Below, one piece after another: positions 4,445 to 61,000 of a stretch of DNA of 64,000 bases. A program made the position numbers and the translations under genes. The notes under the pieces were generated by a model. The model was not told where the DNA came from. It was given only the letters and a program-made list of their open reading frames with translations, and did no database searches. The stretch spans positions 392,770,001 to 392,834,000 of the forward strand of contig OZ024741.1 in assembly GCA_964016885.1 (NCBI GenBank), written 5' to 3'. Position 1 is the first letter of the stretch; every line of letters starts with the position of its first letter. This DNA is from Eledone cirrhosa. Taxonomy: Eukaryota.

Positions 4445-4661
4445 GTAATGGACATGGTTATACGGAACAGGAAGGACAACCGTACGAACGCGCATGCGCA
4501 GACACGGTCACTTCACTCAGGCAATACTAAATTGCGTGCGAGAGGGGTAAGGGAGATAACTGCGAAATTCCGATAACAGTAGGATAACAGTAGCTACCAA
4601 CCTCTCTAGCGTAGATTTCTTAGATATTAATTTAGACCTTCGCACACACACATACAGACCC

Positions 4662-5534
4662 TTGCATAAGCTTAACAAAAAACTCAATTACATTCACAAG
4701 GACTCATGCCACCCTCCCACTGTTTTTAGAAACTTCGTAAATAATATCAGTACTAGAATCTCAAACCTCTCCTCTAATAAGGCTATCTTTGACAGAGCAG
4801 CACCCTACTATAACACGGCGTTAGCTAACAGCCGCTTCTCGCAACCTATCACTTACTCTCCCACTAACAACAACAGCAATAAGAAAACAAAGCATAACAA
4901 TAAACAAACTATCTGGTTCTCTCCTCCCTTCTCACTCAACGTTAAAACCAACGTAGGCAACAAAATTCTAGCCCTCTTAGATAGATACTTTCTCATAGGT
5001 CATAAATACCGTTCCATCTTTAACCGACACAAAGTAAAACTAGGATACTCCTGCACTAAGAACATAAAGGCCCACATCACCAGCAGCCCTAGGAGCAACA
5101 CCCCACCAGGGCCACCAGGGTGCTCTTGCCGTAAGCCTGAAGCTTGTCCCTTTTAACAGCAATGCAACACACCCGCTGTAGTTTATGAAGCTGTGGTCAC
5201 TTCCAACCGACCAAATCAACCACAGGAGGTCAAATCCTATGTGGGTATGATGGAGGGCCGATTTAAGGAATGCTTCCTGAACCACCAGTCGACCTTTAGG
5301 TACCCGGACAGACGTTCATCCACGAAACTCACGAGCCACGTATGGTGCCTCAAGGACTCAAGTATAGACTACTCCATTCAATGGAAAGCCATCACTAAGT
5401 CCAAGCCATACGCAAGGGGCAATCCGTCATGTGGTCTATGTATTGATGAACGAATAAATATTCTAAAGAGATTACGCAATAACGATTGCCTAAACACGAG
5501 AAATAAATTCTTCACACGTTGTCCACACCTTTGA
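4662..5534 (+). pseudogene. Penelope-like RT thumb + GIY-YIG endonuclease, interrupted by a stop near 5155
   Basis: ORFs 4662-5156 and 5193-5534; motif series shared with the elements at 20146, 44760 and 58797. Confidence 0.85.
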
Positions 5535-6376: not shown

Positions 6377-6410
<34 letters not shown>

Positions 6411-6413
<3 letters not shown>

Positions 6414-7991
6414 TGCCCCGCAAAAGTTTACAACACATTAGGAAAAATGCGGTTTTAGGTATTTTTAATAAAGTTAGGGTAATGAAATTTAACTACTGAT
6501 AGAACATATAATGAGGCATTTAATGATACAATCATATTTAAAAAAAAATAACAAGGAAATAAATCATGAAGAAAAATCAATATTTTTATAACGCAAAAGT
6601 TTACAACACATTTTATATTTATCGCTTTTTTCAAGAAAATTCTTAAATTTTCAGATTTAAAATTCAGTAGAATGTTCTAGATTAGGTTTAAGGTAACTTC
6701 TAAGGACTTTTAAAAACATTATGTCATTATTTGTCTGACAACCATCCTGTAAACATTGACAACCGTCCTGTAAACATTGACAATATAGGGAAAAAATAAA
6801 CTGATTGATCAAGACCTCCGTAAACGCATTGAAGACCTTCATCAAATGGTGTTGGTTATAGAAAGATATCTTGTCAGTTAAATGTTCAGTTGGTACTATA
6901 ATTCGTCACTGGAAATCTCATCATTCCATCTGTCCTCTAATTAGTTCTGGTCGTCCTAGAAAGATAACGGAACGTGCAGCTCGGTTATTGACGAGAAAGG
7001 TTGACAACGAACCCCGGTGTACTCTTAAAAATCTTCAGGATGACCTAGAAGGAAGTGGAGTAAAAGTGAGCACAGATACAATTAGTCGTTCACTTCGTCG
7101 ATATGATATCTTTTCGAGGTCTCCAAGGAAAACACCACTTCTTACGAGGAAACACGTTCTTCGTCGATTAAACTTTGCAAATGAGCATCTCATCAAACCT
7201 GCGTCATTTTGGGAAGATGTACTTTGGTCGGACGAAACAAAAATTGAACTTTTTGGTCGAAAGGCTGTGACAAAAGTCTGGAGAGAGAAAAGTACTGAAT
7301 ATTCGCCGAAGAATACTATTCCAACTGTAAAATTTGGAGGTGGATCAATCATGGTCTGGGGTTGCTTTAGTGCCACAGGTGTAGGAAATATTGAAATAAT
7401 AGAAGGAAGAATGGATGGCGCTTATTATAGAGCTATTTTGCAAAGGAATTTATATCAAAGTGCACATTCTTTCAGCTTAAAGTCAGGTTGGTTTTTTCAA
7501 CAAGATAATGATCCAAAGCATACTGCAAAGCTAACACAATCTTGGTTAAGTACGAATGGAATAAATGTTCTAAAATGGCCAAGTCAGTCTCCAGATCGAA
7601 AATTTGTGGAGAGAACTGAAACACAGAATTCAAAAAAGGAAACCCCAAAATATCCCTGAACTAAAGAAAATTTGTTGTGAAGAATGGAAAAATATTAGTC
7701 AAGAAACATGCAAGAAGTTTGTAGGAGGCTACTCCAAACGCCTACAGCAACAAAGGTTACGCTACGAAATATTAAGAGATGATTTAATAAATGTGTTGTA
7801 AACTTTTGCTTTATAAAAATATTGATTTTTCTTCATGAGTTATTTCCTTGTTATTTTTTTTTAATATGATTGTATCATTAAATGCCTCATTATATGTTCT
7901 ATCAGTAGTTAAATTTTCATTACCCTAACTTTATTAAAAATACCTAAAACCGCATTTTTCCTAATGTGTTGTAAACTTTTGTGGGGCACTG
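6411..7991 (+). mobile_element. Full-length Tc1/mariner transposon with ~200-bp IR/DR terminal inverted repeats, TA target site
   Basis: TA|CAGTGCCCC...GGGGCACTG|TA. TIRs 6411-6611 and ~7791-7991, each with two AAAAGTTTACAACACATT motifs. Confidence 0.95.
6785..7790 (+). pseudogene. Tc1-type DDE transposase, frameshifted
   Basis: GRPRK, WSDETK, VWGCFS, FQQDNDPKH. The SPDLNPIENLW motif is broken by a deletion near 7598; the N-terminus is also frameshifted. Confidence 0.92.
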
Positions 7992-8576
7992 TATATAGTG
8001 AAAGAGTGAAGAATAACATGGTCAACAGTACAAAAAGGATTTTATTTACATGCTATTCTTCACTCTTTCACTATTATTACTCCAATATTAACCTGCATAG
8101 GAATTCCCAAGAAATCGCAACCTACCTAAGGAAACCTCTTGTTGAGTCAAACAACGCCGTACATTAAAACCATCCACAATACGGAGTACTCACAACCTCT
8201 AACTGGATTACCTATAACGATAATTTGTTATCCCATATAATATATATATACTTTATAAACAACAATCTCTTATGGATATGCCATATTATGTCTTCTTTTA
8301 GTATTCCAGGTAGTTTACCACTTGCAAAGGATTTTTGGAAGAGGATCTGCAGTGGTTTTTGCTAATGTTTGCTTGCATGATTTTTTAGAGGACTATACAT
8401 TGTATTGCTATGTTGATTATTATTATTGTGTTTTAATTTGTTTCTATTCATTGCCATAGTGTATAATATATTTGATTGATTCATTTTCATATTACCATCC
8501 ATACATTCAAGTTTATCATTGTGATCCGAGCAAGATAAAACTTAATTATAATATGATTTCATTATAAGATAAGGAG

Positions 8577-44250: not shown

Positions 44251-44749
44251 CTTCTGTATGGGCATCCAAAGAATTTAAGGCTAGAGATAATGCTGAATAT
44301 TATAATACAGCTTTAACTAGAGCGGCCCATGGTCGAAATATTAGTTATAAGCCTAGGATTCATGATTGAGATGACCTCTAAGGAAATTCGAAAATTAGTC
44401 TTGGGAAGGGGAGAAACCCACTTAATACAGGGAGGGTTGAAGCTACTGTACCTAAACCCTTGGAATCTAGCACCACTATGCCTGCAGGAAAGGCACATAT
44501 CCCTTGGCATACGAATAAACGCAATACTCAAGAAGGGACTAACGCTGATACAAACCACCCTGGCCCCAGCGTCCCCAACCACAGGACACCGACTGGGGTA
44601 GATGGTGGAATACTCCCACCAACGGGAACAGAACAGCAAGCAGAAACTGTACCACGCAACGGGGCAGAAGCAGTGCTAGAGGCCGTAGGGCCCCACCAAC
44701 TCTTCAACGGCCTGGTGTCTACTCAACCCACACACCTAGGACCAGTCAT

Positions 44750-45430
44750 AGAAAAATATAATCCACCATACTCCGTGTGTCTGCCGACCAGCCTGGCCCA
44801 TTTATTCTTTAGGGTGCTTGATAAATGCTTCCCGAGGACCCACAGGTACCATAGAATGTTTAATAGGTACACTGTGAAGCTCTTGTACTCCACCACATTC
44901 AGCGTAGACCATCATATAGCTAGCATCAATAGGAATAGACTTAGGACATTTAGACAGGCACCAGCCGATTCTCTAGACACCCAGCAGAGTCCGGACGAGG
45001 AAAGCAGTAGGCCCGGACTGACCCAAGTAACACTAATCAACCCAGGGACCGGGTGCAAGTCACAGAGACAGACTGCTCCAACCTACCCAATGAGCACCCT
45101 GCAGTAAACATACAGGGGTTGACCACATCATGTAACTGCAGAAACCGCGTCTTGTGCCCCCTTACAATAATTGCCTGGTGTAAAACGTAGTTTACCAATA
45201 CAGGGTTACTCGACACATATATACATAGGTGCAACATCAACGAGCTCCAAAGACAGGTGGTATAATCACTGCCACACCTTTAATAGGATCAACAAAAGTA
45301 AAAGTACGACCCTTTCCAAACTGATCTGGAAGCTCAATCTGGACATGACTCCGTACTCTTTGGTATGGTTCAATGTTAGGTAAGTACCACTAGACTGAAG
45401 CGGGTCTGCGATTTGCAGCCGTGAAGGACA
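44750..45430 (+). pseudogene. Degraded Penelope-like (Naiad-type) linker + GIY-YIG endonuclease
   Basis: YNPPYS...FPRTHRYHRMFNR, CNCRNRVLCPL, YIGATST. Confidence 0.85.
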
Positions 45431-46210: not shown

Positions 46211-46217
<7 letters not shown>

Positions 46218-46575
46218 AAAAAGGGATGAAATCGAAAATGCAACTGAAGTCTTATTTTTTTTTAAATATATATATTTATTTGGTTCCTTTACCGGTTTCG
46301 CAGTTCTTCTGCTTTTCAAAAGGTGAGTTGAGATGGAGGGTCTGTAGTTTTTCTCACAATGGCAGATGTGAGAAAAACCACAGACCCTCCATCTCAACTC
46401 ACCTTTTGAAAAGCAGAAGAACTGCGAAACCGGTAAAGGAACCAAATAAATATATATATTTAAAAAAAAATAAGACTTCAGTTGCATTTTCGATTTCATC
46501 CCTTTTTCTTTATACTTCCACTCGTGTAGGACACCTCGGTTATTTTTCATTTTGTAAAAAAAACCTCACTTTCTA
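46211..46575 (+). mobile_element. Non-coding hammerhead element with 5' fold-back (palindrome 46211-46514); second copy 55240-55545
   Basis: Near-perfect arms, (TA)n flanks, U3-A8 hammerhead at 46402-46439. Confidence 0.85.
46402..46439 (+). ncRNA. Minimal hammerhead with U3-A8 core (also 46286-46323 minus, 55371-55406 plus)
   Basis: CCTT-TTGAAAA-GCAG-AAGAA-CTGC-GAAA-CCGG-TA-AAGG. Confidence 0.75.
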
Positions 46576-46583
46576 ATATATAT

Positions 46584-46960
46584 ATATACGATATTAAACA
46601 AATGGAAACTATATTTATAAAACCATATTTATTTCATTATACATATTTCAGGGATACCATATTAAAAATATGGCATGCCTTCGTCAGATAAAATACAATA
46701 TATAAACAGTTTTATAAATAATTTTGACGTACCATATTTATGGTACGTCAAAATTATTTATAAAACTGTTTATATATTGTATTTTATCTGACGAAGGCAT
46801 GCCATATTTTTAATATGGTATCCCTGAAATATGTATAATGAAATAAATATGGTTTTATAAATATAGTTTCCATTTGTTTAATATCGTATATCTACTCCAA
46901 AAACTTGTCGAGTGCTTTATATCGGTTATAAAATATTTACTTGTTGTAACCCAACAATTT
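46584..46960 (+). repeat. Perfect fold-back palindrome (46584-46891) of the Penelope terminal repeat with hammerheads at 46781-46844 (plus) and 46631-46694 (minus)
   Basis: ATTTTAT-CTGACGA-AGG...CCT-GAAA-TATGTA-TA-ATGAAAT. Confidence 0.9.
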
Positions 46961-46973
46961 TAAATAAAACTTT

Positions 46974-48244
<1,271 letters not shown>

Positions 48245-48342
48245 CGTGTATGTGTGAGTGTGTGTATATATGATAAAATATTATAGTTGGTTTGAAGCAT
48301 TATATATATATATATATATAATGCTTCAAACCAACTATAATA

Positions 48343-49043
48343 TTTATGCCACGAAACTACGTAGTCGAGGAATCTAGGAGAAGTTTGGGTATGATACATT
48401 TTATTACTAATTATATCTAAATGTTTCTTCTCTCTTCATAATGTATTTTTAACTCTGATACTGGTTCAGTCTAATTCAACCGGATTGGTCTGTCCCAGTC
48501 ATTCATTGAGCAACATCGGTAAGGTTGGCACCATTAACTCACGGTTGGATGTGGATGCATTCATGTATATGTGTGTGTCCGCATGTATCTGTGTGTTTCT
48601 AAATATATTGTTCATAACTCCCTCTGGTCGAGTAATCTTTGAAGTGTGGTGACTGCTGGAAAGCTGCCATTACTCATACTTCTCGCCTCCTTCACCACCT
48701 CTTCTACGGCTTCGATATAAATACCCCCTCCGCCTCCGTGGTATTTTCTTCGGGGTTATAAGAGGCTTAGCTCTGTTTCTCGACCGTTATATCGCGTGAC
48801 TATCTCCCCCTCCGCCTTTTGGGATTCTTTCTCACGTCATGTAGACGCGTTCTTGAAGCTAGTAAAATGAGGTATCCTCTTGATAAGTCGGCAGACCTCG
48901 CAAAGGCTCTATATCTTTATGATGTATTGTTTTTGTTTATGCCACGAAACTACGTAGTCGAGGAATCTAGGAGCAGTTTGGGTATGATACATTTTATTAC
49001 TAATTATATCTAAATGTTTCTTCTCTCTTCATAATGTATTTTT
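48343..49043 (+). mobile_element. Retrozyme-like non-coding element: 593-bp unit with ~107-bp direct terminal redundancy
   Basis: 48343-48450 is repeated at 48936-49043; complete hammerhead at 48875-48964. Confidence 0.8.
48875..48964 (+). ncRNA. Type I hammerhead with U3-A8 core and long stem II
   Basis: TCCTC-TTGATAA-GTCGGCA...TGCCAC-GAAA-CTACGTAG-TC-GAGGA. Confidence 0.75.
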
Positions 49044-49604
49044 ATATATATATATATATATATAACGTTGAAAGAGATAGAAGGCCAAACAATGCAAAAT
49101 GGACTGTAAGATGAGGTAACGAAAAGTTACCTGGTAATCTTTGTTTTGTTTTGTTGTTGTTCTTTTATCTGTCCAATACTTTGGGAGCTAAAAGTCCCTT
49201 CATCAGGGTTTAAGGAACCTTCAGTGGATAACGTTCCAATTTCCTCTCTTTGGGATTAAATTTTGATTTTGATTTAAATTTTTGCTGCGTCCACAGATTG
49301 ATTTTTTTTTAGTTTCAGAAGATCCCGTTAAGGGTGAAAGCAGCGATTCTTTGCTTAAACTTAAATCTGTTATTTTAATATTTGCAAGAGATGTCAACAT
49401 GAATGGACCTGTTATTTTTATCTAAAGACATTTTTTCCAATTCTAACCCGCCCGTCCCCTCAATCTATCTTATTTCTCATTCTTTCTTCTGATCAAGGAA
49501 TAGCGTCTGAAACGTTAAGCCCCTCCTCCTGCTATATCAAGCGTTAACCTAATATATCCCTTCCATATACTGTACCGATTGTGTTGTTATTTCTGTTTAC
49601 CTTT

Positions 49605-52532: not shown

Positions 52533-52540
<8 letters not shown>

Positions 52541-52708
52541 CTGCTTTGGGAGGGTCATGTTGCCAATAAGAAACACACACATCAGTTGCTTTCACTCCAA
52601 TTTATTATAAATTAAATTTATAAATTTAATTTATAATAAATTTGAGTGAAACAACTGGTGCGTGTGTTTCTTATTAGCAACATGGCCCTCCCAAAGCATA
52701 ACAATATC
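52533..52708. repeat. Fold-back palindrome adjacent to (TA)n; single related arm at 55672-55750
   Basis: TATTGTTCTGCTTTGGGAGGGTCATGTTG versus CAACATGGCCCTCCCAAAGCATAACAATA; centre near 52620. Confidence 0.8.
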
Positions 52709-52785
52709 GGTTTCAACACACGTTTTCAGATAAAGAATCTTGCTAAACAAATTCAGAAACGAAATATATATATATATATATATAT

Positions 52786-55225: not shown

Positions 55226-55538
55226 TATATATATATATATATAAAGAAAAAGAGATGAAATCGAAAATGCAACTGGAGTCTTATTTTTTTTTTAAATATA
55301 TATATTTATTTGGTTCCTTTACCGGTTTCGCAGATGTGAGAAAAACCACAGACCCTCCATCTCAACTCTACTTTTGAAAAGCAGAAGAACTGCGAAACCG
55401 GTAAAGGAACTAAATAAATATATATATTTTTTAAAAAAATAAGACTCCAGTTGCATTTTCGATTTCATCTCTTTTTCTTTATACTTTCACTCGTGTAGGA
55501 CACCTCGGTTATTTTTCAATTTGTAAAAAAAACCTCAC

Positions 55539-55603
<65 letters not shown>

Positions 55604-58069: not shown

Positions 58070-61000
58070 ATACCTATAGGTAAATACACATATGTTCAAC
58101 AACGTATATATACCAAAACCCTATGTACACATATACACACCATACATACGTGCAAACACACATACATACTCATACATACCCATATATACGCATATACATA
58201 CATACATATATGGGTGTATAAAAAAATTAAATTAAATTAAAAAAATACCAACGTACATATACGTATATATACACATATATATACATATACACTCACCCGC
58301 AAATAAACAAATATAATACACGTACATACACATACCCACACACACACATACACCCACATCCACAGACACACACACACACACATACATACACACATGCACA
58401 CACACTCACGCACACACACACAGACACAGACACATATATACATATACATATATATATATACACACACATATATACATATATATATACAATATACACATAA
58501 AAATACAAAAATATACACAAATACATATATACACACATACACAAATACATATATATACACACATATATGCATACAAATATACACGCACAAACACGAAATA
58601 CACGTATACACACATACCAGTATATATAATATATACACCTATAACAAATACAAGCATATATACGTACGAGAGAGTATACGTACCTTCACAAAACATACAG
58701 GTAATTTATACTAACCTATACAAATAAGTAATGGTATAAACATAAAATATACTTAGCTACCACATCAAGACGTAAATTATCCGCGTATTGTTCGTACTAT
58801 CCGTTAGGGTATAATGTGGGGCTGTATAACAGAAAAGTTTTGTGCAATTTGTGTTTACAAGCCGAAATTGTCTCGGATTTTTTGTTTAAGATGTTATCAT
58901 TGGCGTAGAATATTTCCAGGGCTTCAGTGGCGCAAAGATCGCACGGTCTTTTGTTTCGGTTATCCGATCTAGCTTTAGCTAGGATCTCCCAGTGTAACCT
59001 ATATTGGGTGTGGTTGTCTTTTAGATTCCAGATATAAGCTGAAAGTAACGTCATGTTCCTTCTTAAAGGGTTAAGAAAAGAATGGGTGTGCATGTAAAGA
59101 CGCTGCTTGAATCTATTGGTGGTTAACCCTATGTAGGCCCTACTAGACGTGAGTGTGTCGACCTTACATTTGTAGACAATGTTACTGGAGAGGCATTTCC
59201 CGGATAGAAGGCAGTCAACCTGATTCCTACAATTACAGTTAGTACTAGCTACAGGGTTGCACGTGTTACTACGGCTAGATAATTTGACTAAATTTGATGC
59301 AGTGATGTTATGTGCGAAGTTAAGAGTCGTGGAGTAAGATATTTTAACGGTATTTTTATTAAAAATGTTATTATATTTATGTGCTAAGGGGAAATGCTTC
59401 TTTATTAGAGAGAGAAAGATTTTAGCTAATGGTGTGGCCACCTCCATATTATATGGTGGATTATACCATATAATGCGTCCGGATCTATTTTTTCCTAGGT
59501 TTATGCTCGTACTTAGTATATTCTACCTTATCAGCAAATCCACTCCGGGCAAGAGCTTCATTGTAATATGTGGAAAGATCAGTGAAAATATGCTCGCTTG
59601 TAGATAGACGAGAAAGCCTCAAAGAAACGTTTCTTACCAGGTTCTTGGTTATGCTGGCGGGATGGTTAGAATTCTTACTGATCTAATTAAGCGAATCATT
59701 CGGCTTTCTATACGGGTAGTACAAGCCATTGGACAAATTGACAAATTGAGGGTAACGTATAGGTAGTTTACGACCGAAAGGTTGGCCTCAACTTGTATGG
59801 AGAGGTTGAAGCCTTTAAAGAAAGCTGGAAGTTCTTTTCTAAACCTATCGCAAGCTCGGGACCACACTTTGTCATGGTCAAAAGGCCGTCATCATGGTAC
59901 AAGCCTCCGCCTAGATTATGGAAATCTTCCTTGATAGAGAAAAGAAGGAAAAGGCCGATAAAATCTGTAACCTCCGCCAAATCACTGGCGCCCATAGTCA
60001 CGTCGAATGGGATACGATTAGATTTTGTATCCAAATAGAGTCGTCAAAATTAATCACCGACTTACGGCCATTGAGGATGTCATCAACTTCGAGATTTTTA
60101 ACCACCGTGAGCGTTTTAGCAAAATTGATAGCTCTAAGAAGAAGTGGTAAAATGATGGAGGAGTAGTAGTTGTTGATGTTGAATTGGATACAACGACAAT
60201 GTTCCTTGTTGCATACGCCATTGAACCAATCAACCACCGCGAAAGAATTATTCCACAATGCAAGAGGGGCCAAGCTTCTAATTTCAGGAATAATTCTATC
60301 TAAAATTCTTTTACTAAGTCTACCTAAAACAGACTTTGTAGGGTTTTTAGCAGAGAGTTATGTTTAGAGAGTTGTAATGTTGCCACGAGGAACCAGGTTT
60401 GGTAGAAAGATATGATAGGAATATCGACAACGACTTTAGCTTGTTTTTACAAAGGTTATTTATTAACAAAGGTTAAGAAGTGAATTAAGTTGGCATGCCA
60501 AGAATAATGAAATAATCCAATTAAGATTACAAGAGAAAATACGGTCGACTGGCTGAGGCGTTTGGCCAGGTCCGTAGTAAAAGTGTTGTGTCGTTACATA
60601 TTGTTTGTGCTTACGGAGCAAAAGAACAAGTGATGTTTACCTTAGCATGGTCAAGCTGCAAGTCAGTGATTTCTCAAATCTTCGCAGGCTATTTCTCCCT
60701 CAGAACGCGTAGGGATACATCCTCTTCTCCTGGCGCTGATTGGCTGAGCTGAGCCAAATCACGCACAGAGAATGTATGTGAGCCCGCGGAATCTAGGTCA
60801 CTACATCACCTCCGAGCAGATATTAAGCCGAAAATCGTTAACGATGAAGCCAAGCACCCACAAGGTACAGTTTACATCCCCCCTTCTAGACGGTAGTCGA
60901 TACAGATTATTGAATCAGCAAGAACAAATGCTGAAAGAGCACATCAGTGAAAAAATAATTGAGCAGAAAGATGCATGCAAGAAAATAAATGAGGCGCTAC

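What the first reader, a model, noticed from the sequence alone, without database searches (positions are those of the whole stretch)
48343..49043. Second retrozyme candidate: 593-nt unit with terminal redundancy spanning the cleavage site
Seen: a ~107-bp direct repeat containing the GAAA-CTACGTAG-TC|GAGGA half of the ribozyme. The downstream copy is a complete hammerhead, the predicted cleavage sites are 593 nt apart, there is no credible ORF, and a small TA-centred hairpin (48277-48345) caps the 5' end. Inference: copying past the junction of a circular or tandem RNA.
Basis: partly seen in the sequence, partly recalled or inferred. Interest (0 to 1): 0.75.

Follow-up and report, generated by a model that had tools for sequence, protein, structure and literature searches.

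The report
Penelope-copied retrozyme with two start sites
This is one copy of a very abundant non-coding 593-base jumping element that carries a hammerhead-type motif predicted to cut its own RNA, and the shape of about a hundred sister copies suggests that Penelope-like transposon enzymes likely copy it from a single RNA circle, starting each DNA strand at a different fixed site.

Summary
Observation confirmed: 109-nt repeat, sites 593 nt apart, complete type I hammerhead downstream (U3-A8 core), no ORF. The unit is a family with about 7,500 ribozyme copies, often in head-to-tail arrays. None of 96 sampled loci joins a Penelope ORF. Copies end at two fixed sites 163 nt apart, on (TA)n; 5' ends fall anywhere round the unit. 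In head-to-head insertions one arm ends at each site: 43 of 43 classifiable, 15 of 17 in a divergent subfamily. Units and arms of one insertion share private variants about 30-40 times more than matched copies elsewhere, and 76 passes cross the cleavage site without scar. The hairpin is not an element cap: it is a fold-back of unique target DNA. Verdict: a new non-LTR retrozyme family inserted Penelope-style, probably from a circle. Cleavage, circular RNA and the partner enzyme are not shown. The scan noted Penelope-type insertion shapes before in other genomes, not this family.

The parts
48343..49043 (+). the insertion: 1.18 units of the 593-nt element, 5'-truncated, ending at site A
   Evidence: 98-99% identical to other genomic copies over all 701 nt
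48367..48959 (+). 593-nt unit from cleavage site to cleavage site (predicted monomer or circle); non-coding; folds at -170.9 kcal/mol, z -4.2
48343..48451 (+). upstream copy of the 109-nt redundancy with the 3' half of the ribozyme; predicted cleavage after 48366
48875..48964 (+). complete type I hammerhead: U3-A8 core, bulged stem II with a long inner hairpin, palindromic 8-nt stem III; predicted cleavage after 48959
48936..49044 (+). downstream copy of the 109-nt redundancy
49030..49039 (+). site A, first fixed 3' end of the family (unit position 104; internal twin at 48446), used by this copy; follows a long predicted hairpin that pairs off the ribozyme's stem I strand
48600..48612 (+). site B, second fixed 3' end of the family (unit position about 267, window 48609), 163 nt downstream of site A; internal in this copy; follows a predicted hairpin at 48547-48590
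48276..48345 (.). 70-nt palindrome: unique host flank 48276-48301, target (AT)9 48302-48319, inverted copy of the flank 48320-48345, joined to the element through 3 shared T; a junction product, not part of the element
49044..49063 (.). (AT)10 on the 3' side, the other half of the target microsatellite

Best explanation
This is a 5'-truncated copy of a high-copy, non-coding 593-nt hammerhead-bearing family (a non-LTR retrozyme) that sits in (TA)n tracts, ends at one of two fixed sites, and is likely copied into the genome by a Penelope-like reverse transcriptase-endonuclease, probably from a circular monomer. Proposed cycle. (1) Inferred: copies with more than one unit are transcribed, the hammerheads cut out a 593-nt monomer, and it is ligated. 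(2) Inferred from copy anatomy: a Penelope-like protein, probably a dimer, binds one RNA and cuts both strands of a (TA)n tract. One strand primes at site A and the other at site B, annealing to short AU tracts. (3) Shown in DNA: each arm runs a random distance round the unit, through the cleavage site, for up to almost five units. (4) Shown in DNA: the two arms are joined head to head over a few shared bases, or one arm is missing and the other is joined to the target. (5) This copy, inferred: only the A arm survived, and the other target strand folded back on its (AT)9, copied about 25 nt of its own flank and joined the cDNA, which made the hairpin.
For: Family: 1,799 exact hits of a cleavage-site 29-mer, 7,701 of a site-A 26-mer, 7,820 of the core 5' box against 283 for the reversed control. 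Head-to-tail arrays with 588-595-nt period and no ORF between ribozymes. 87 of 94 3' ends abut (TA)n. Single-arm copies end at A 15, B 14, other 2 of 31. Head-to-head copies have one A and one B arm: 27 of 27 classifiable among 32 (p 1.5e-8), 16 of 16 among 18, 15 of 17 in a subfamily 75-82% identical. Arms are not mirror copies: only 6 of 49 have 5' ends within 15 nt of each other, and 3 of 49 share no sequence at all. Primer annealing: G to A at unit position 101 in 14 of 64 terminal A ends, 0 of 107 internal passes. One template: alleles seen in no other sampled insertion are shared at 0.92/kb between tandem passes and 0.68/kb between arms, against 0.024/kb for equally diverged copies elsewhere; 15 of 60 multi-pass insertions carry such alleles in every pass, 19 alleles, 9 across both arms. 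One insertion has six full units with 0-2 mismatches across both arms, one unit with a 16-nt insert. In the sample not selected on the ribozyme, 76 passes cross the cleavage site with 0 indels and 0 of 54 5' ends stop there. Ribozyme 40 of 40 positions identical between subfamilies against 217 of 303 elsewhere. Literature: one-sided tail and inverted arms are Penelope hallmarks (PMC8557442, PMC3846280, passages); a Penelope protein cuts and extends both strands, starts inside the RNA at two sites and is predicted to be a dimer (PMC11167929); the genome holds intact 713-aa Penelope-like frames.
Against: No partner element sharing sequence with the unit was found. Rfam does not score the ribozyme, and its catalytic stems are invariant, so covariation support is weak (1 of 26 pairs with a double change; 14 of 500 shuffles reach the score). 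The 40-of-40 figure is partly biased because the divergent subfamily was first reached by a pattern over the ribozyme's 3' half. In vitro, the anole Penelope uses uncut RNA and ribozyme-dead mutants insert normally (PMC11167929); 8 of 9 Xenopus retrozyme dimers did not cleave (10.64898/2026.07.22.740005). The A-plus-B rule has exceptions: one clear B/B (L173) and one doubtful (L184). Two insertions have private alleles in only some passes (L052, L063), and 16% of within-insertion differences are family polymorphisms, which a single error-free circle does not explain. A fold-back junction like this one was not found convincingly in 47 other single-arm copies (two hits, both in low-complexity sequence).
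Confidence: 0.65

Rival explanations
1. Same non-autonomous family and same Penelope-type two-site priming, but the template is linear: an uncut multi-unit transcript from a homogeneous array, or a terminally redundant transcript copied repeatedly by homology-guided jumps. The ribozyme serves some other step.
For: Uncut RNA is the main substrate for the anole Penelope in vitro (PMC11167929). Arrays of several identical units exist and could be sources. Seamless junctions are expected here too. Partly shared private alleles in L052 and L063 fit source arrays with unequal units.
Against: A new mutation reaches every unit only through a one-unit bottleneck, yet 15 of 60 insertions show alleles fixed in all passes. 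The strict A-plus-B pairing is simplest if the RNA has one A and one B site. The ribozyme is kept intact across subfamilies.
Confidence: 0.25
2. The unit is only the terminal repeat of an autonomous Penelope-like element, and these are its truncated stubs.
For: Most Penelope copies are short stubs with inverted arms and a one-sided tail; the window holds several. Only a small share of the thousands of loci was examined.
Against: Ribozyme-to-ribozyme distance is 588-595 nt in arrays of up to almost five units, with no room for an ORF. Penelope-like ORF pieces lie in the flanks of 22 of 96 loci but never continue the unit's 5' end.
Confidence: 0.05
3. Monomers insert, and arrays and shared variants arise later in place by unequal crossing-over or gene conversion, as for a minisatellite.
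For: Proposed for tandem formation in 10.64898/2026.07.22.740005 (discussion). Conversion would explain shared private alleles.
Against: The near-identical insertions have 0-2 differences, while diverged ones show 2-4% between their own units with mostly single-pass private changes, so homogenisation is not ongoing. Array lengths are non-integer, and both arms of one insertion can be multimeric.
Confidence: 0.05

Closest known systems
Metazoan non-LTR retrozymes (Cervera and de la Pena 2020, PMC7229834; parts 2-4 of 6 read)
   Same: Non-coding tandem units, one type I hammerhead each, low GC, strongly self-paired RNA, thousands of copies, co-occurring with Penelope-like elements. That paper proposes circle-templated reverse transcription by Penelope-like elements as a hypothesis.
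   Different: Unit 593 nt against about 170-400 nt there. U3-A8 core and a 59-nt stem II region. The predicted circle pairs off the ribozyme's stem I strand, whereas most metazoan circles there leave the ribozyme free. RNA not examined here.
Animal retrozymes as non-autonomous Penelope-like derivatives (Li, Clavereau, Pollet 2026, bioRxiv 10.64898/2026.07.22.740005; parts 1-3 of 5 read, supplements not seen)
   Same: Same conclusion on dependence; unit length lies within their 51-972 bp range; meets their criterion of consecutive units with complete ribozymes.
   Different: Their evidence is co-occurrence and terminal-repeat phylogeny, mostly in vertebrates. Here it is insertion anatomy, and no homologous terminal repeat of a parent was found.
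Insertion architecture of endonuclease-bearing Penelope-like elements: inverted 5'-truncated arm, 30-40-bp tail at one end, (TA)n targets (PMC8557442, PMC3846280; passages)
   Same: Inverted arms, tail on one arm only, microsatellite targets, microhomology joints.
   Different: Tail is 163 nt (about 170 in the divergent subfamily). No ORF. Junctions are mostly not palindromic (6 of 49 near-symmetric), against the self-priming reading in PMC3846280.
Poseidon element of the green anole, in vitro (Frangieh et al. 2024, PMC11167929; parts 1-2 of 4 read)
   Same: Two internal start sites downstream of the hammerhead, both target strands extended, AT-rich targets.
   Different: Their sites are adjacent and not homologous to the target; here they are far apart and show primer annealing. 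They saw no strand difference in start site in bulk; per-insertion pairing, as seen here, would be hidden in a bulk assay because A falls on either arm equally (14 against 13).
Penelope-associated hammerhead variants (Cervera and de la Pena 2014, PMC4209133; passages)
   Same: U3-A8 core described in Schistosoma; bulged helix II and palindromic helix III described in Drosophila virilis and others; dimeric cleavage expected.
   Different: Here these traits are combined in a stand-alone tandem unit.

Membership tests
non-LTR retrozyme | tandem units each with a complete type I hammerhead | tested here: met
   arrays of 2 to almost 5 units per arm, ribozyme in each; this particular copy has one whole and one half ribozyme
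non-LTR retrozyme | no protein-coding capacity, not joined to an RT ORF | tested here: met
   longest frame 85 aa; 0 of 96 loci joined to a Penelope-like ORF piece (queries were nine ORF pieces from the window)
non-LTR retrozyme | no fixed LTR pair (unlike plant LTR retrozymes) | tested here: met
   5' ends scatter over the whole unit, so the redundancy length varies; primer-binding site and polypurine tract were not searched for
non-LTR retrozyme | unit size | tested here: inconclusive
   593 nt: above 170-400 nt (PMC7229834), inside 51-972 bp (10.64898/2026.07.22.740005)
non-LTR retrozyme | ribozyme self-cleaves | not testable with these tools
   fold and conservation only
non-LTR retrozyme | expressed as unit-length linear and circular RNA | not testable with these tools
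   needs RNA data; none could be examined
Penelope-mobilised non-autonomous element | fixed 3' ends with optional tail, inverted 5'-truncated arm, tail on one arm | tested here: met
Penelope-mobilised non-autonomous element | (TA)n targeting, no poly(A) tail | tested here: met
   87 of 94 3' ends on (TA)n
Penelope-mobilised non-autonomous element | sequence homology to the terminal repeat of an autonomous partner | tested here: inconclusive
   none found in one family's 30 loci or in flanks; the genome has 74,454 candidate Penelope-like matches of which 150 were scored
autonomous Penelope-like element (terminal-repeat stub) | RT and GIY-YIG ORF between terminal repeats | tested here: not met
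   ribozyme spacing 588-595 nt in arrays

The most novel reading that the evidence does not exclude
A Penelope protein dimer grips one ribozyme-made RNA circle at two different fixed sites, primes one target strand at each, and both subunits roll round the same circle. This single rule would account for retrozyme arrays, Penelope's inverted arms and the tail found on only one end, and this family records it in thousands of copies with an unusually wide 163-nt spacing that makes the two starts easy to tell apart.
Probability: 0.45. Interest if true: 0.75.

Novelty: new member of a known kind. Interest (0 to 1): 0.55.

Why it matters
Animal retrozymes are known, but how they get back into the genome was a hypothesis (circle copied by a Penelope-like enzyme), and how Penelope elements make tandem, inverted, one-tailed insertions is stated as open in PMC8557442. 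This family gives per-insertion evidence on both: Penelope-type ends, strict pairing of two start sites, and one template for all units and both arms. It yields a direct test: a 593-nt circle, two mutable start sites and a (TA)n target. The element itself is not a new kind, and the one-sided tail was already described qualitatively.

Tried and rejected
RNA evidence: no RNA holder listed among 6 runs; this says nothing about expression. Four runs of unknown kind, contigs only, were laid on 48245-49300: one shows loose (AT)n ends at 48446 and 48608 but may be the assembly's own sample; one holds a 621-nt contig spanning a whole unit and one a joint that goes back a unit, which tandem DNA explains as well as a circle; the flanks had no cover, so the empty site was not seen. 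Not used as evidence.
Partner search: the window's most complete Penelope-like family has an unrelated 3' region; other families' 3' regions and a ribozyme catalogue of all flanks gave no match; a pattern meant to skip the main family returned 45 hits, and the 12 examined were all family members, 4 of them a divergent subfamily; a second such pattern did not exclude the family and served only as a count; DNA searches returned family copies only; one widely spaced pair proved to be two separate insertions. Pfam did not recognise five Penelope-like pieces. No match of a 21-nt ribozyme motif in metagenome contigs. No earlier scan note near this place or like this sequence.
Rfam: nothing at gathering score; at E up to 5 only palindrome-driven miRNA-type hits and sub-threshold hammerhead hits on the neighbouring element. 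The bacterial promoter scan does not apply to an animal genome and was ignored.
Rejected: hairpin as an element terminus; fold-back origin of the inverted arms in general; pile-up of 5' ends at the cleavage site; arms stalling at the other arm's start site (no clear excess). Target-site duplications could not be read because targets are (TA)n.
Literature: searches for Penelope with twin priming, for Penelope with hammerhead, rolling-circle, circular RNA, tandem and target-primed, for octopus with hammerhead ribozyme and for recent structural work listed no paper on per-insertion pairing of start sites; these were listings only, and subscription papers are not covered. Preprint supplements were not seen and may list related families. 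The host species was not determined; 'octopus' was only a guess used as a search word.

Full report
Observation. The repeat is 109 nt, at 48343-48451 and 48936-49044, 593 nt apart, with one mismatch. The downstream ribozyme is a complete type I hammerhead at 48875-48964, with predicted cleavage after 48959; the upstream copy holds only its 3' half, with the site after 48366. The core reads UUGAUAA, the U3-A8 covariant reported for Schistosoma Penelope-like elements (PMC4209133, passages). Stem II is bulged and carries a long inner hairpin, and stem III is a palindrome suited to dimeric folding. Rfam does not score it. No frame exceeds 85 aa. The unit folds better than all 100 shuffles (z -4.2).

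Family. The window lies in a 3.0-Gb assembly; its repeat content points to an animal, and the species was not determined. Exact-pattern counts give 1,799, 7,701 and 7,820 less about 280 background, so roughly 7,500 ribozyme copies. I took two samples in chromosome order: 60 of the 72 clusters among the first 100 hits, and the 36 clusters not yet held among the first 100 hits. A further 30 best-scoring loci, 20 loci of a subfamily 75-82% identical and 8 chosen loci were also read. Units lie head to tail with a 588-595-nt period, up to almost five per arm. Penelope-like ORF pieces occur in the flanks of 22 of 96 loci, as expected in a genome with 74,454 candidate matches, but none continues the unit's 5' end. 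The element is therefore a self-contained non-coding unit, not a stub.

Ends. 3' ends fall at unit position 104 (site A; window 48446 and 49039) or about 267 (site B; 48609). 87 of 94 abut (TA)n. Among 31 single-arm pieces, 15 end at A, 14 at B and 2 elsewhere. 5' ends are spread over the whole unit. In the second sample, not selected on the ribozyme, 76 passes cross the cleavage site with no indel, and 0 of 54 5' ends stop within 3 nt of it (0.8 expected at a uniform rate). A cut, unligated monomer was therefore not the usual template. At site A the G three bases before the end is replaced by A in 14 of 64 terminal copies and 0 of 107 internal passes, which I read as the (TA)n primer annealing over the RNA. 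Other equally AT-alternating tracts of the unit are rarely used as ends, so structure or protein binding probably picks the sites; both follow predicted hairpins that persist across subfamilies, mostly through one-sided changes.

Two arms. About half of insertions have two arms joined head to head, mostly over a few shared bases. One arm ends at A and the other at B in 27 of 27 classifiable cases among 32 (p 1.5e-8 against equal odds) and 16 of 16 among 18. In the divergent subfamily 15 of 17 pair this way, with one clear B/B (L173), one doubtful (L184) and one further case unclassifiable. Neither sampling pattern excludes A/A or B/B. The arms are not fold-back copies of each other: 6 of 49 have 5' ends within 15 nt, and 3 of 49 share no sequence. 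A tail on only one end of inverted insertions is a described Penelope trait (PMC8557442 and PMC3846280, passages), explained in vitro by two internal start sites (PMC11167929, first half read). Several other inverted stubs in the window show the same one-sided tail, 56-82 nt long.

One template. Alleles seen in no other sampled insertion are shared at 0.92 per kb between tandem passes and 0.68 per kb between opposite arms, against 0.024 per kb for copies elsewhere at the same 1% divergence (pairs are not independent). Counted per insertion, 15 of 60 carry such alleles in every pass: 19 alleles, 9 of them across both arms. One 4.6-kb insertion has six full units differing by 0-2 bases across both arms. 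More diverged insertions differ internally by 2-4%, mostly through single-pass private changes, so conversion is not keeping them alike. Against a perfectly clean reading: 16% of within-insertion differences are family polymorphisms (49% between matched copies), and two insertions have private alleles in only some passes. A monomeric circle explains fixed private alleles, seamless junctions and one A plus one B site most simply. An uncut homogeneous multimer or repeated jumps across a terminal redundancy remain possible.

Ribozyme conservation. Between two subfamilies, 40 of 40 core and stem positions are identical, against 217 of 303 elsewhere (p 1.6e-6); the 3' half was part of the pattern that first found the subfamily, so this is partly biased. 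Covariation is weak because the catalytic stems do not vary. In the predicted circle the 3' strand of stem I is taken into the site-A hairpin, which would protect a circle from re-cleavage; this is prediction only.

This copy and the hairpin. It is a single A arm of 701 nt, so the redundancy is simply 701 minus 593. The hairpin arm occurs nowhere else in the genome, even with one mismatch. It is an inverted copy of about 25 nt of host flank centred on the target (AT)9 and joined to the element through three T. I infer fold-back of the second target strand in place of a B arm. This junction type is rare: two weak low-complexity hits among 47 other single-arm copies. With one whole ribozyme, this copy could release a monomer only by read-through transcription and dimer-type cleavage of the half-site, which is untested.

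What is missing. No partner was identified, although intact 713-aa Penelope-like frames exist. Cleavage and circular RNA were not testable. In published tests many such ribozymes cleave poorly or not at all (PMC4209133; 10.64898/2026.07.22.740005).

Verdict. Real feature; new family of a known kind (non-LTR retrozyme, PMC7229834). The added value is mechanistic: strict pairing of two start sites and one template per insertion, which I did not find in print in searches. Earlier scan notes from other genomes describe similar Penelope-type insertion shapes; they were leads only. Interest 0.55.

Noticed in passing
window 47067-48220: Neighbouring hammerhead element with a 466-nt period, canonical core (sub-threshold Rfam HH9 hits), head-to-head arms and a 71-nt tail on one arm only; probably a second, unrelated family using the same mechanism.
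   Followed up: partly
window 46211-46577, 46581-46976, 52533-52770, 55240-55545: Further (TA)n-bounded inverted stubs with one-sided tails of 56-82 nt; those at 46211 and 55240 carry a hammerhead with the U3-A8 core, that at 46581 one with the canonical core.
   Followed up: partly
L149 1498-3639 (-); window 58797-60357 (-), 20143-21256, 4560-5534, 44382-45400: Very abundant Penelope-like elements with a C-terminal GIY-YIG region; several genomic copies keep a 713-aa open frame. Their assignment to the Hydra clade is my recollection of motifs, not tested.
   Followed up: partly
window 48716-48723: TATA-like box inside the unit; a variant is present in the divergent subfamily. Possible internal promoter, untested.
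   Followed up: no
L173 1230-2178; L184 1364-2109: Exceptions to the one-A-one-B rule in the divergent subfamily.
   Followed up: partly
L123 1589-1994; L125 1497-2327: Rare perfectly palindromic junctions, where both arms stop at the same unit position.
   Followed up: no
L102 (G000:C1:19618643-19625323): The same two-arm insertion occurs twice 2.55 kb apart; local duplication or assembly artefact. The second copy was dropped before counting.
   Followed up: no
L084 flank; L037 flanks: L084: a Penelope-like 3' end with another U3-A8 hammerhead next to the insertion. L037: the insertion's two flanks begin with inverted copies of each other.
   Followed up: no
window 6405-7997: Element with 210-nt terminal inverted repeats and a 265-aa frame that looks like a Tc1/mariner transposase (family name from recall).
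   Followed up: no
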